Below, one piece after another: positions 17,401 to 20,400 of a stretch of 64,000 nt of DNA. The stretch spans positions 1,056,001-1,120,000 of the forward strand of contig JBMNIF010000002.1 of assembly GCA_050950765.1 (NCBI GenBank), in the 5' to 3' direction. The DNA is from Bdellovibrionota bacterium (GTDB lineage Bacteria > Bdellovibrionota_C > UBA2361 > JAAYZI01). Position 1 is the stretch's first letter; the number at the start of each line of letters is the position of its first letter. The position numbers were made by a program.

Positions 17401-20400
17401 TCGCACGTGAGCACTCTATGGGTGCTGCTAAGATCGGCACAACGGGGCGAGGTATTGGGCCAGCCTACGAAGATAGAGCAGCTAGAATGGGTGTGCGGAT
17501 GGCTGATCTCTTTGATCTGGGGGCGTTAAAGAAGAGGTTACGAGAGATTACAGATCAGAAGAATCTTTATTTATCAGGTGTTTTGGGGAGTGCAACGGTG
17601 GCTGATTTTGATCAAATTTGGCAGGTCGTAGAGCGAGCTGCTGAAAAGTTGTGTCCTCATGTGCGTAACGTCAGTTTGTTGATCGATCAAGCGCTGCAAA
17701 ACGGTAAGAAGGTGCTTTTTGAAGGTGCACAAGGAACGTTGCTGGATCAGATGCACGGAACAGTTCCGTTTGTAACTTCTTCAAATACAGTGGCGGGTGC
17801 TGCTGCTACCGGTACGGGGATCGGACCTAATAAGATAGATTACGTTTTAGGTATTGTAAAAGCTTATACGACCCGTGTGGGGAGTGGGCCATTCCCAACT
17901 GAATTGAATGATAAGGATGGCGATCACCTTTGCGAGAAAGGGCGGGAGTTCGGCACCGTCACGGGTAGAAAAAGACGGTGCGGTTGGTTTGATGGTGTGG
18001 CGATGCGACGGGCTGTCAGATTAAACGGTATAAATTCTTTTGCCATCACTAAATTGGATGTTCTTTCAGGTTTAGATACTTTAAAAATTTGCACTAAATA
18101 TAAACTTGATGGGGAGTATATTGATGATGTGCCACCTCTCGCTAGTGAGAGTGCTAGGGTGCAGCCTGAGTATATTGAATTAGCTGGCTGGAAAGAAGAT
18201 ATCTCAACGGTAAAGTCGTGGCAGGAGTTGCCAGAGGCTGCTAAAAGATATCTTTCGACTATTTCGGACGTTACAGGTTGTCAGATCTCTGTTTTGAGTA
18301 TAGGACCAGATCGAGATTCAACGATCTTTTCAGATTGTTCACAGTTTATCCGTAACTTTTAAAGGTGATGAGGAGTTGAAAGTCATGCAGAATGAGGTGC
18401 CGCAAAAAATTCTTATAATTGATGATGAAGAGAGTATCTGCCGTACATTAACTGCTATCTTTAAGGATGAAGGCTTTGCGCCGATCTCTGCACAAGATGG
18501 AGAAACGGGGTTGCAACTTATTCGAGAATCATCACCAGCTCTAGTGTTGCTGGATATCTGGATGCCGAGTATGGATGGGATTGAGGTCTTACAAAAGATT
18601 AAAGAGATAGATCACGATATCCCTGTTGTGATGATTAGTGGGCACGCTACTATTTCGACTGCGTTGCAGGCGACTCGGATGGGTGCTGCGGATTTTATTG
18701 AAAAGCCTCTGGAATTGGAAGCTACTATGCGCGTTGTTAGGCGTGTGCTCGGGATAACAGATCTTGAAAACGAAGTTGAAGCAGGGCAGGTCTCAGAAGA
18801 AAAAGCGACAGCGGAGTGGGTTATCAATGGTGGGAGCGAAGGGGTAGCCATTAACAGAGTTGTTTTTGAAGATCAGAAATGGCGCGGGCGTAAAGTAACA
18901 CAAAAGACCTTAAAACACAGCGCAATCTTATACGGGCACGGTGTGCATAGTGGAAAGAAATCAGGTTTGCTACTTGAGCCGTTAGGTGCAAATTGTGGGA
19001 TCCATTTTACAGCTGTTGCTTCAACACAAGCTGTACCAGCACATCTGAATTACGTTCATTCAACAGGGTATGCCACAACGATTAGAGAGGGTGAAAATAG
19101 CGTTGCTACTGTGGAGCATTTAATGTCTGCTTTACATGCCTATGGCATAACTAATCTACTGATAAAGTGTAACGGTGAAGTGCCTGTTATGGATGGTTCG
19201 GCGCTAGAGTTTTGTAACCTCTTTGATCAAGTTGGTCTTGAGGAACAGGTAGGAGATTTTTATGAAATCGAAGTAAAGCACGCCGTTCGGATCGGAAATG
19301 AGAAGGAGTATATCTTACTTGAGCCTGCCGATGAATTTTCAATTGAATATACCTTGCAATATCCAGAACCGATTGGGCGACAGTATATGCAGTTTACTTT
19401 AGAGAGCCCTGCGACATTTGTAGATTTTGTGGCACCAGCTAGAACTTTCGGATTTGTAAGGGATATCGGTGCACTGCAGAAGCAAGGTTTAGCGCAAGGC
19501 GGACGCTTTGATAATTTTGTGCTTGTTGGAGAAGATGGGATTATTAACGCAGATTTGCGTTATCCTGATGAGCCCGTGCGGCATAAAATTCTAGATATGA
19601 TTGGAGACCTTTACCTTTTAGGACGACCGATCCGTGGAAAGATTACTGCTTGTATGACGGGTCATTCTGATAATATTGCGTTATTGAGGGCGTTGCAAAA
19701 GGAGATGAATAAATAAAGGTAGATTATTTAGCCTCCAATCTGAGATAATCTTTTATTTTTAAGTTTTTTCTCGGTACTATACTGTATTGTTGCGGCTTTG
19801 ATTTGAGGGGTATTTATGTTTTGTATTTCAGGACGTGATCTAGCGGTAGATTTGGGAACCTCCAATACACTGGTGTATATAAAAGGTAAGGGGGTCGTGC
19901 TTAATGAGCCTAGTGTTGTAGCTTTAAAGCAGCGTGGTAAGCGTCGAACTCCGATCGCGTTTGGAGCTGAAGCTAAAAATATCTTGGGGAAAGCTCCAGA
20001 AGGAGTGGTGGTGGTGCGCCCTGTTAGAGCAGGCGTTATCTCTGATTTTGAATCAGCTGGGATAATGCTAAATCAATTTTTAAGAACAGCTTTAAAGGCG
20101 CGTAGCTTTATAAAACCGCAAGTTGTAGTTACGGTTCCAAATACGATCTCAGAAGTTGAGAAGAGAGCTATTCGAGATTCTATTGAAGGAAGTGCTTCGA
20201 TTAAATTAATAGATCAAGCTATGGCTGCTGCTATCGGATCTGATCTGCCTGTGAAAGAACCTTCTGCTAGTATGATCGTTGATATCGGGGGTGGTACAAC
20301 GGACGTTGCTGTAATCAGTATGGGACAACTTGTTTGTTGTCAATCGGCGAGACAGGGAGGGGAGGCGGTTGATGATGCTATTATAAATTACCTTAGACGC

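What a model noticed while it worked through the whole genome (the two positions that open the first line are those of the whole stretch)
18385..19716. LpxC fused to an N-terminal phospho-receiver domain
The only LpxC (g01278, 443 aa) carries a complete CheY-like receiver (9-116, with the DD pocket, the acceptor Asp in LLDIWMP, Ser/Thr and Lys) in front of an intact deacetylase domain (173-438). I read it as lipid A synthesis whose committed step is switched directly by two-component phosphorylation instead of, or besides, FtsH/LapB proteolysis. New would be a phosphorylation-gated LpxC, a simple handle on LPS output, conserved over the order.
Evidence so far: Pfam Response_reg E 3.5e-29 and LpxC E 2.1e-84 (model 1-267 of 268) on one ORF; TVEHL, HKILDMIGD and GHSDN motifs present; it is the only LpxC row. 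Of 21 genomes of the order, 21 match and 19 have one frame covering both domains (50-62% identity, frames 430-490 aa); the other two are split or cut by contig ends. Paper search LpxC + receiver domain + fused: 3 papers, none relevant.
(Added by a program. Inside this text positions count along the whole contig: contig position 1,056,001 is position 1 of the stretch shown here. "Call 12" and the like, gene names such as g00115 and contig names such as C1 are that model's own, and its searches are not shown. The text may have been shortened before it was handed on; [...] marks where a part breaks off. The agent that wrote the report below was given it as the finding of a first reader that could run no searches.)

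Follow-up and report, generated by a model that had tools for sequence, protein, structure and literature searches.

The report
Phospho-receiver domain fused to LpxC
The only gene in this bacterium for LpxC, the enzyme that commits the cell to making outer-membrane lipid A, carries an intact phosphorylation-switch domain, so lipid A output is probably set directly by a sensor kinase, a form of control found in no paper I could search.

Summary
Window 18385-19716 (+) is one 443-aa ORF: an intact receiver domain (residues 9-116), a poorly conserved linker, and a complete LpxC (173-438). It is the only LpxC in the genome.

It covers the whole class, which is the whole phylum as held. The same fusion family occurs in Acidobacteriota, Binatia, Thermodesulfobacteriota and Nitrospirota (Thermodesulfovibrionia), and Atlas clusters of the long form are labelled mostly Nitrospinota. 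Some members are long forms that keep a sigma-54 AAA+ module and an HTH_8 motif, which points to an NtrX-type regulator fused to LpxC.

The kinase now has a candidate. The genome holds one NtrY-type kinase with no partner beside it, in ruvA-ruvB-DUF4390-ntrY. Its orthologues sit directly upstream of the fusion gene in 14 of 35 fusion loci from other phyla.

How phosphorylation acts on LpxC is not shown: activity, stability and location are all possible. A second conserved orphan regulator competes for the kinase.

I found no paper describing the fusion. This scan has already noted it 30 times on other DNA. Verdict: real, and a new variant of a known kind (a response regulator with an enzyme output).

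The parts
18385..19716 (+). REC-LpxC fusion gene, 443 aa, the only lpxC of the genome
   Evidence: AlphaFold2 gives mean pLDDT 87.8 and pTM 0.78. Contigs of two independent runs are identical over it.
18370..18375 (+). GAGGAG, a likely ribosome-binding site 9 nt before the ATG. The purA stop codon ends at 18362, leaving a 22-nt gap.
   Evidence: Read from the sequence. The site's function is inferred.
18409..18732 (+). Receiver (REC) domain, residues 9-116, NtrX/NtrC-like
   Evidence: Pfam PF00072, E 1.9e-28. NtrX is the best receiver-containing family in NCBIfam at 123 bits, below its 600-bit cut-off. The model shows a (beta-alpha)5 pattern.
18553..18555 (+). Codon of Asp57, the predicted phospho-acceptor, in LLDIWMP
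   Evidence: D57 is kept in 121 of 121 closest cluster representatives. In 25 diverse fusions it is nearly invariant, with one Asn exception.
18733..18900 (+). Linker, residues 117-172. Poorly conserved; low model confidence over 128-139.
   Evidence: Mean identity 28.5% (computed over residues 121-170) against 61% for REC and 65% for LpxC. pLDDT is below 50 over 128-139. No remnant of an AAA+ or HTH module was detectable.
18901..19698 (+). LpxC deacetylase domain, residues 173-438, with all catalytic and zinc residues
   Evidence: Pfam PF03331, E 1.9e-83, model 1-267 of 268. TIGR00325 is over its cut-off. Foldseek hit 4oze_A has TM 0.95 and rmsd 1.5. E244, H245, T354, H400, K401, D404 and D408 are kept in 121 of 121, and H427 in 120 of 121.
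17055..18362 (+). purA (adenylosuccinate synthetase), the upstream neighbour on the same strand; context only
   Evidence: ORF list; the name is my reading of the translation. purA lies upstream of the fusion in 6 of 21 relatives' loci tested.
19816..20814 (+). mreB-like gene, the downstream neighbour on the same strand; context only
   Evidence: ORF list; the name is my reading of the translation. It lies downstream in 3 of 21 relatives' loci, and the flanks there were only 1.5 kb.

Best explanation
The gene encodes the cell's only LpxC as the output domain of a response regulator. An NtrX-type receiver (acceptor Asp57) is joined by a flexible linker to a catalytically complete LpxC.

Most likely, phosphorylation of Asp57 changes how much UDP-3-O-acyl-GlcNAc is deacetylated. 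Lipid A flux would then be set after translation by a two-component signal.

The most likely phosphodonor is the genome's single NtrY-type sensor kinase at G000:C3:223395-225611. It sits with a DUF4390 (PlrP-like) periplasmic protein in ruvA-ruvB-DUF4390-ntrY and has no regulator gene next to it.

Shown: the architecture, the sole copy, conservation of the acceptor and catalytic residues, orthology of the kinase, and its operon linkage to fusion genes in other phyla.

Inferred: that phosphorylation happens, that NtrY is the donor, and what phosphorylation does. My preferred mechanism is CheB-like: one state of the receiver restrains the enzyme and the other releases it. Phosphorylation is somewhat more likely a brake than an on-switch. 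Evolutionarily the protein looks like an NtrX-type regulator that became fused to LpxC and later lost its AAA+ and HTH modules.
For: Architecture and intact residues.

Sole LpxC, with lpxA, lpxB, lpxI and fabZ present.

Conservation. Order: 54 of 61 genomes fused in one frame. Outside the order in the class: 28 of 33. Phylum as held: 95 of 96 genomes match.

The receiver is conserved almost as well as the enzyme, and D57, S85 and K107 are kept in 121 of 121.

Kinase. There is one NtrY_N-HAMP-PAS-HisKA-HATPase protein in the genome, DUF4390 lies directly upstream, and no regulator is adjacent. It matches at E <= 1e-40 in 71 of 71 high-quality genomes of the class.

Full-length homologues of this kinase (33-37% identity) lie directly upstream, on the same strand, of the fusion gene in 14 of 35 fusion loci from other phyla. 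They lie next to 0 of 45 unfused lpxC loci.

Six of those kinases were searched back against this genome. Each hits this kinase best, at 365-459 bits, with the next hit at 96 bits or less.

The same synteny is seen elsewhere: ruvA-ruvB-ntrY-[REC-LpxC] in Binatia and Syntrophobacter, and DUF4390-ntrY-[REC-(AAA-HTH_8)-LpxC] in Thermodesulfovibrionia and one unnamed MAG.

A receiver profile built from 13 kinase-linked fusions scores this protein best in the genome, 151 bits against 112 for the runner-up.

Literature links NtrYX to lpxC and LPS levels (PMC7240162 and PMC12444477, passages read). It also names DUF4390/PlrP as a third component of NtrYX-family systems (PMC13001219, passages read).
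Against: Nothing here shows phosphorylation or any effect on LpxC.

In this class the kinase and the fusion are never adjacent.

A second conserved orphan regulator could be the kinase's true or additional partner. It is a full REC-AAA-HTH sigma-54 activator at G000:C2:293028-294437. It is found in 36 of 41 class genomes, with no kinase core within 1.5 kb in any of the 30 loci fetched, this genome's own among them.

Four small genomes keep the fusion but show no NtrY_N match: G061, G063, G084 and G093, 77-92% complete.

In 21 of 35 fusion loci from other phyla no such kinase is adjacent; this includes all the Acidobacteriota loci.

The model's inter-domain geometry could not be inspected, so the CheB-like mechanism rests on analogy and on a pTM of 0.78 only.
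Confidence: 0.6

Rival explanations
1. The receiver controls the amount of LpxC, not its catalysis. The phosphorylation state exposes or hides a degradation signal for FtsH, Lon or Clp, giving a self-contained version of the proteolytic control known from E. coli.
For: FtsH is present at 857 bits. LpxC level control by proteolysis is the established theme in Enterobacteria, and Lon is suggested in some alphaproteobacteria (review PMC12444477, passages read). The protein ends right after the last LpxC helix, with no E. coli-type C-terminal tail. Any degron would therefore have to lie elsewhere, for example in the poorly conserved linker.
Against: No degron is identifiable. The linker is poorly conserved at 28% identity, which fits a spacer better than a recognition site. 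No adaptor gene is linked to the fusion.
Confidence: 0.17
2. The receiver acts by changing assembly or location. Phosphorylation drives dimerisation through the alpha4-beta5-alpha5 face, as in NtrC-family receivers, or docks LpxC to the membrane-bound kinase, placing the enzyme next to the later, membrane-bound steps.
For: The receiver is of the NtrC/NtrX type, a group that signals through dimer rearrangement (recalled knowledge). The review notes a proposal that a LapB homologue localises LpxC to the inner membrane in Neisseria (PMC12444477).
Against: Solved LpxC structures are, as far as I recall, monomers with a self-contained active site. No oligomer prediction was run.
Confidence: 0.13
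3. The receiver is phosphorylated, but not by the NtrY-type kinase. The donor is another orphan kinase or acetyl phosphate, and NtrY's real partner is the orphan sigma-54 activator at C2:293028-294437, which lies about 2.7 kb from the skp-fabZ-lpxA-lpxI cluster.
For: That regulator is conserved in 36 of 41 class genomes and has no adjacent kinase core in any of 30 loci. It is the second-best match to the receiver profile, at 112 bits. The fusion persists in four genomes with no NtrY_N match.
Against: Operon linkage of ntrY with the fusion in 14 of 35 loci from other phyla, the shared ruvAB/DUF4390 context, reciprocal best hits, and the 39-bit lead of the fusion's receiver over the runner-up. 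The two partners need not exclude each other.
Confidence: 0.25
4. The receiver is a leftover. It folds and is kept for stability or as a phosphate sink, and LpxC runs unregulated by it.
For: No experiment shows regulation. The partner modules (AAA+, HTH) have been lost, which shows the lineage tolerates decay of the regulator part.
Against: The acceptor pocket is kept in 121 of 121 close relatives and across phyla. So are Trp59 (two residues after the acceptor Asp) and His87 (two after Ser85), positions I recall as tuning phosphorylation kinetics. The receiver's conservation is close to the enzyme's.
Confidence: 0.08

Closest known systems
NtrY/NtrX two-component systems, including Bordetella PlrS/PlrR with the periplasmic DUF4390 protein PlrP
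   Same: The receiver's best family match is NtrX. The candidate kinase has the NtrY architecture, NtrY_N-HAMP-PAS-HisKA-HATPase, and a DUF4390 gene directly upstream, the arrangement described for PlrP-PlrS (PMC13001219). In Rhodobacter sphaeroides, loss of NtrYX raises lpxC mRNA 8.8-fold and raises LPS (PMC7240162).
   Different: NtrX is a REC-AAA+-HTH transcription regulator with a large regulon, and its effect on lpxC is indirect. Here the AAA+ and HTH modules are gone and the enzyme itself is the output. The protein scores 123 bits against the NtrX cut-off of 600. The kinase gene is not next to it.
Response regulators with enzyme outputs: CheB (REC-methylesterase), PleD/WspR (REC-GGDEF), RpfG (REC-HD-GYP)
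   Same: One chain joins an N-terminal receiver to a C-terminal enzyme, so the signal acts without transcription. This is the working model for the mechanism (recalled knowledge; RpfG-type architectures are discussed in the preprint read).
   Different: The output here is an essential biosynthetic enzyme of the envelope, not a signalling enzyme. No structure or assay exists for it.
Proteolytic control of LpxC by FtsH with LapB/YejM in E. coli, and other LpxC controls reviewed in PMC12444477
   Same: [quoted passage not shown]
   Different: That control works through a C-terminal degron and adaptor proteins. This protein has no such tail and carries its own sensor-linked domain. The words receiver, fusion and fused do not occur in that review's main text.
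Desulfovibrio vulgaris DVU2931 (kinase) and DVU2934 (DNA-binding response regulator), whose single mapped target is lpxC
   Same: A two-component system dedicated to LpxC. The paper also notes lpxC directly upstream of the orthologous regulator operon in Syntrophobacter fumaroxidans (PMC3333781, passages read).
   Different: The control there is transcriptional and the genes are separate. Whether DVU2931 is NtrY-like was not tested here.
Bifunctional LpxC-FabZ fusion (NCBIfam NF009667)
   Same: Another natural fusion of LpxC with a second domain.
   Different: There the partner is a pathway enzyme at the C-terminus. This protein scores 199 bits against a cut-off of 465 and has no FabZ part. 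fabZ is a separate gene here.

Membership tests
LpxC, UDP-3-O-acyl-GlcNAc deacetylase (TIGR00325 / PF03331) | Full-length match over the curated cut-off | tested here: met
   TIGR00325 scores 243.6 bits against 187.25. PF03331 scores 280.5 bits over model positions 1-267 of 268.
LpxC, UDP-3-O-acyl-GlcNAc deacetylase (TIGR00325 / PF03331) | Zinc ligands and catalytic residues. The E. coli numbers H79, H238, D242, E78, H265, T191 and K239 are recalled. | tested here: met
   H245, H400, D404, E244, H427, T354 and K401 align to the P. aeruginosa chain. They are kept in 120-121 of 121 relatives.
LpxC, UDP-3-O-acyl-GlcNAc deacetylase (TIGR00325 / PF03331) | LpxC fold | tested here: met
   All top Foldseek PDB hits are LpxC, with target TM up to 0.95 and rmsd 1.5.
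LpxC, UDP-3-O-acyl-GlcNAc deacetylase (TIGR00325 / PF03331) | Deacetylase activity | not testable with these tools
   Needs an enzyme assay. It is the only LpxC, and lpxA, lpxB and lpxI are present.
Response-regulator receiver domain (PF00072) | Match over the cut-off and a (beta-alpha)5 fold | tested here: met
   99.3 bits against 30.2. The model has five strand-helix pairs over residues 8-121.
Response-regulator receiver domain (PF00072) | Acidic pocket, acceptor Asp, Ser/Thr and Lys | tested here: met
   D13 121 of 121, D14 120 of 121, D57 121 of 121, S85 121 of 121, K107 121 of 121.
Response-regulator receiver domain (PF00072) | Phosphorylation by a cognate kinase | not testable with these tools
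   There is a candidate kinase only.
NtrX (NCBIfam NF051870) | Whole-protein score over 600 bits, with REC-AAA+-HTH_8 architecture | tested here: not met
   123 bits, receiver part only. No AAA+ or HTH is found by Pfam, and there is no remnant in the linker. It is not a member. It is related to NtrX through the receiver and through long-form relatives that keep AAA_lid and HTH_8.
NtrY/PlrS-type kinase as the partner system | NtrY_N, HAMP, PAS, HisKA and HATPase_c in one protein, with DUF4390 upstream | tested here: met
   L037:7393-9612(-), 739 aa. NtrY_N scores 36.2 bits against 23.2. DUF4390 lies at L037:9617-10198.
NtrY/PlrS-type kinase as the partner system | Kinase and regulator genes adjacent | tested here: not met
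   They are not adjacent in this genome or anywhere in the class. They are adjacent in 14 of 35 fusion loci from other phyla.

The most novel reading that the evidence does not exclude
NtrY, a PlrP-like DUF4390 protein and REC-LpxC form a three-part envelope-sensing circuit. A periplasm-facing kinase sets lipid A flux within seconds by phosphorylating the committed-step enzyme itself. This would be an ancient route found in at least five phyla that stands in for the FtsH/LapB proteolytic control of Enterobacteria. It would have arisen when an NtrX-type regulator linked to lpxC control became fused to that gene.
Probability: 0.4. Interest if true: 0.85.

Novelty: new variant of a known kind. 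Interest (0 to 1): 0.72.

Why it matters
How bacteria balance lipid A against phospholipid and cell-wall synthesis is an active question. LpxC is the known control point and an antibiotic target. Every studied control acts through proteolysis, partner proteins or transcription.

A receiver built onto the only LpxC of a cell would be a direct, reversible, signal-driven control of outer-membrane synthesis. Here that arrangement is kept across a whole phylum and shared with several others.

It is easy to test with purified protein and Asp57 variants. It comes with a named candidate kinase and a candidate periplasmic co-sensor. It would also give a function to the widespread but poorly understood NtrYX family outside Proteobacteria.

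Tried and rejected
- Complex prediction of the receiver (residues 1-126) against the LpxC domain (165-443) gave no verdict: score 0.00 against a mark of 0.32. It is evidence neither way.
The inter-domain contacts and the state of the active site could therefore not be inspected.
- Remnant of AAA+/HTH in the linker: a profile of residues 116-168 from 121 relatives, searched against 22 proteins (long, REC-HTH_8 and other short forms), gave nothing better than E 0.006, and that hit was in another short form's linker.
- Expression: the one clear metatranscriptome that held words of this stretch (X20) gave contigs over a piece of purA and 32 bases of mreB only, and none over the fusion gene. Nothing can be said about transcription.
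- LapB: the zinc-ribbon model PF18073 found nothing, but it rings in 10 of 14 control genomes, Gram-positives included, so it is not a usable test.
- The promoter and terminator scan of 16900-21000 found no more sites than shuffled sequence.
- tblastn with this genome's DUF4390 protein found no match in the 80 loci from other phyla. Pfam, however, found DUF4390 upstream of the kinase in 2 of the 4 such loci annotated.
- Apparent exceptions in the class were checked. G003 and G067 are fusions with longer linkers. G061 is a diverged fusion. G063 is cut by its contig start.
- G040 (one contig, 82% complete) and G033 show no LpxC. G040 also shows no NtrY, yet both have lpxB. I could not decide between real loss and an assembly gap.
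- Two response-regulator surveys that I recalled were not held in the library. Whether they list this architecture is open.
- One alignment call failed on wrong strand coordinates and was not repeated.
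Full report
THE OBSERVATION

Window 18385-19716 (+) is a single open frame of 443 aa. It starts at ATG, with GAGGAG 9 nt upstream. An in-frame TTG three codons earlier is the only other possible start. The opposite strand, in the one frame translated, is full of stops.

Pfam finds Response_reg at residues 9-116 (E 1.9e-28) and LpxC at 173-438 (E 1.9e-83, model positions 1-267 of 268). The NCBIfam lpxC equivalog is passed, 243.6 bits against 187.25.

The alignment to solved P. aeruginosa LpxC chains (E about 3e-50) covers residues 166-438. It shows the TVEHL, RHKILDxIGD and GH motifs in register.

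An AlphaFold2 model built on 25 diverse fusions has mean pLDDT 87.8 and pTM 0.78. Only residues 1-3 and 128-139 fall below 50. Its best matches among solved structures are all LpxC, with target TM up to 0.95 at rmsd 1.5.

PF03331 finds one match in the whole 2.64-Mb, 94%-complete genome. lpxA, lpxB, lpxI and fabZ are present elsewhere. This is therefore the working LpxC of a lipid A producer.

Two metagenome assemblies from other studies hold the stretch without a single difference. One contig spans the whole gene and one bridges the domain junction. The fusion is not an assembly artefact.

CONSERVATION

In the order, 61 genomes were searched.
- 54 have both domains in one open frame: 53 by one continuous match, and G003 by a separate blastp.
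- 5 are cut by contig ends.
- 2 (G033, G040) have no LpxC found.

Outside the order but inside the class, 33 genomes were searched.
- 28 are fused in one frame.
- 3 are cut.
- 2 show no match; these are 66% and 77% complete.

A phylum-wide search of genomes at least 85% complete returned 96 genomes, all of this one class, and 95 of them match.

In the 121 closest cluster representatives:
- D13, D57, S85 and K107 are kept in 121 of 121, and D14 in 120 of 121.
- The LpxC residues E244, H245, T354, H400, K401, D404 and D408 are kept in 121 of 121, and H427 in 120 of 121.
- Mean identity to the window's protein is 61% for the receiver, 65% for LpxC and 28% for the linker.

A receiver that evolves as slowly as the essential enzyme, with a perfect acceptor pocket, is not a pseudo-receiver.

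THE WIDER FAMILY

A search of 1.84 billion representatives ranks fused proteins first, ahead of ordinary LpxC. Pfam scans of 27 of these proteins gave:
- 13 short REC-LpxC proteins;
- 7 long REC-Sigma54_activat/AAA_lid-LpxC proteins of 650-736 aa;
- 4 AAA-LpxC proteins without a receiver;
- 2 REC-HTH_8-LpxC proteins;
- 1 unrelated protein with three receivers.

The ESM Atlas lists 17 of its 30 nearest large clusters as REC plus LpxC.

A scan of one genome per species returned 80 loci. Thirty-five are of the fused type. By their record titles they come from Holophagales, Thermoanaerobaculia, Terriglobia, Aminicenantes, Binatia, Syntrophobacter and other Thermodesulfobacteriota, Desulfomonile, Nitrospinaceae, Thermodesulfovibrionia and unnamed 'Deltaproteobacteria'. 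In 33 of the 35, the receiver and LpxC lie in one frame.

LpxC domains of the fused type are 46-62% identical to this one. The 45 unfused ones are 33-41% identical.

In a FastTree of 144 LpxC domains, all 77 fused rows plus two unfused rows lie on one side of a branch (support 87, not starred). In an IQ-TREE of 68 rows the fused label needs 2 changes, against a shuffled mean of 20. The window's phylum forms a clade with support 95-98. Long and short forms are interleaved.

One long form carries REC, a weak sigma-54 AAA+ match, AAA_lid, HTH_8 and LpxC in that order.

The simplest reading is that an NtrX/NtrC-type regulator was fused at its C-terminus to LpxC, and the middle modules were then lost several times. 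The direction is inferred, because the trees are unrooted.

THE KINASE

The genome has 18 HATPase_c matches. Only one protein has the NtrY make-up: NtrY_N (36 bits against a cut-off of 23), HAMP, PAS, HisKA and HATPase_c, 739 aa, at G000:C3:223395-225611.

It is the last gene of yebC-ruvA-ruvB-DUF4390-ntrY. No regulator gene follows it. The next 1.6 kb is a repeat array with no Rfam match.

The kinase matches at E <= 1e-40 in 94 of 101 genomes of the class and in 71 of 71 high-quality ones. DUF4390 lies directly upstream in 11 of 11 relatives' loci checked. The kinase is never next to the fusion gene.

In other phyla the picture is different.
- Full-length homologues (33-37% identity) lie directly upstream of the fusion gene, on the same strand, in 14 of 35 fusion loci.
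- They lie next to 0 of 45 unfused lpxC loci.
- Six of these kinases were searched back against this genome. Each finds this kinase at 365-459 bits, with the next hit at 96 bits or less.
- The wider context is shared: ruvA-ruvB-ntrY-[REC-LpxC] in a Binatia and a Syntrophobacter MAG, and DUF4390-ntrY-[fusion] in a Thermodesulfovibrionia MAG and an unnamed MAG.

It therefore looks as if the regulator gene left an old operon in this phylum and moved behind purA. That new position is itself only partly conserved: purA lies upstream in 6 of 21 loci tested.

A receiver profile built from 13 kinase-linked fusions scores the window's protein at 151 bits. That is the best in the genome, ahead of 112 and 107 bits.

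A COMPETITOR, AND GAPS IN THE PAIRING

The 112-bit runner-up is a complete REC-AAA-HTH_8 sigma-54 activator at C2:293028-294437. It lies about 2.7 kb from the skp-fabZ-lpxA-lpxI cluster.

It is conserved in 36 of 41 class genomes. None of the 30 loci fetched, this genome's own among them, has a kinase core within 1.5 kb.

It may be the kinase's real partner, or a second one.

Four small genomes keep the fusion but have no NtrY_N match. Two of them do carry a 471-479-aa frame that is 46-48% identical to the kinase core.

WHAT IS KNOWN

- In Rhodobacter sphaeroides, loss of NtrYX raises lpxC mRNA 8.8-fold and raises LPS, indirectly (PMC7240162, passages read).
- A 2025 review of lipid A regulation reports NtrYX control of lpxC transcription in two alphaproteobacteria. 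The words receiver, fusion and fused do not occur in its main text (PMC12444477, passages read).
- DUF4390 is PlrP, proposed on genetic evidence as a periplasmic third component of NtrYX-family systems (PMC13001219, passages read).
- In Desulfovibrio vulgaris a response regulator has lpxC as its single mapped target (PMC3333781, passages read).

Literature searches for the fusion itself:
- LpxC with 'receiver domain': 28 papers. None of the 20 listed looks, by title and abstract start, to concern a fusion; two were opened, and they deal with transcriptional control.
- LpxC with 'response regulator' and 'output domain': 4 papers, none on a fusion by their titles and abstracts; three were opened.
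- 'REC-LpxC': 0 papers.
- LpxC with NtrX: 4 papers, none on a fusion by their titles and abstracts; two were opened.

Subscription journals are mostly not covered, and two response-regulator surveys I recalled were not held.

This scan's own notes list 30 earlier findings of the same kind of fusion in at least 29 other genomes. They gave me the lead to look for an NtrY-type kinase, which I then tested as described above.

MECHANISM

Shown:
- a receiver with every feature needed for phosphorylation;
- a complete, sole LpxC;
- a flexible linker;
- a conserved orphan kinase whose orthologues are operon partners of the same fusion elsewhere.

Inferred:
- Asp57 is phosphorylated by that kinase.
- Phosphorylation changes LpxC output.

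I rank the ways phosphorylation could act as follows:
1. Direct restraint and release of catalysis, as in CheB. LpxC needs no partner to be active, and a pTM of 0.78 suggests a defined domain arrangement. This is a weak argument, because I could not see the contacts.
2. Control of stability.
3. Control of assembly or location.

The sign is unknown. Phosphorylation as a brake fits two observations: lpxC mRNA and LPS rise when NtrYX is lost in alphaproteobacteria, and the fusion survives in genomes where no NtrY was found. Both are weak arguments.

VERDICT

The feature is common in uncultured lineages, yet I found no paper that describes it.

It is a new variant of a known kind, a response regulator with an enzyme output. 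It is of high interest to people who work on envelope homeostasis and on LpxC as a drug target.

The organism is an uncultured bacterium. Runs holding this stretch are labelled anaerobic digester, bioreactor, wastewater or landfill metagenomes: 18 runs hold at least half of the sampled words, and two of them were laid on the window and matched it without a difference. Sources name close homologues 'Oligoflexia bacterium' or 'Deltaproteobacteria bacterium'. Earlier notes call the genome Bdellovibrionota (unchecked).

Noticed in passing
G000:C2:293028-294437 (L142:7029-8438), outside the window: A complete REC-AAA-HTH_8 sigma-54 activator with no kinase next to it, about 2.7 kb from the skp-fabZ-lpxA-lpxI cluster. 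It is conserved in 36 of 41 class genomes and is equally orphan in all 30 loci fetched, this genome's own among them. It may share the NtrY-type kinase with the LpxC fusion.
   Followed up: partly
L037:5768-7392 (about G000:C3:221.8-223.4 kb), outside the window: A 1.6-kb non-coding stretch directly downstream of the NtrY-type kinase gene. Short frames there repeat the same peptide-like words, so it is a repeat array. It has no Rfam match. Earlier notes on this genome also mention repeat arrays.
   Followed up: partly
window 6303-7825: Two tRNA-Gly genes (GCC at 6303-6378, CCC at 6428-6503) are followed on the minus strand by a 423-aa ORF (6554-7825). Its C-terminus looks like a tyrosine recombinase, judged by eye and not tested. 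This may be the edge of an integrated element.
   Followed up: partly
L072:4780-6912 and proteins P0131, P0147: In other phyla, relatives keep the middle of the ancestral regulator: REC, weak sigma-54 AAA+, AAA_lid, HTH_8 and LpxC in one 710-aa protein, and REC-HTH_8-LpxC proteins of 491 and 505 aa. Whether these still bind DNA is open.
   Followed up: partly
G040 (a genome of the same order, one contig, 82% complete): No LpxC and no NtrY-type kinase were found, but lpxB is present. This is either joint loss or a gap in the assembly.
   Followed up: partly
proteins P0188 and P0202: Two unfused LpxC proteins (290 and 283 aa) sit inside the clade of fused LpxC domains, next to P0158 and P0155. 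They may reflect secondary loss of the receiver, a split gene or a cut gene call.
   Followed up: no
window 10013-25860: The fusion gene lies in a long same-strand run of core genes, named by my reading of the translations: nusA, infB, rbfA, a DHH-family protein, truB, purA, the fusion, then mreB. A minus-strand ORF (20902-21246) interrupts the run, after which come rpsL, rpsG, fusA and tuf. No promoter or terminator stands out between purA, the fusion and mreB.
   Followed up: partly
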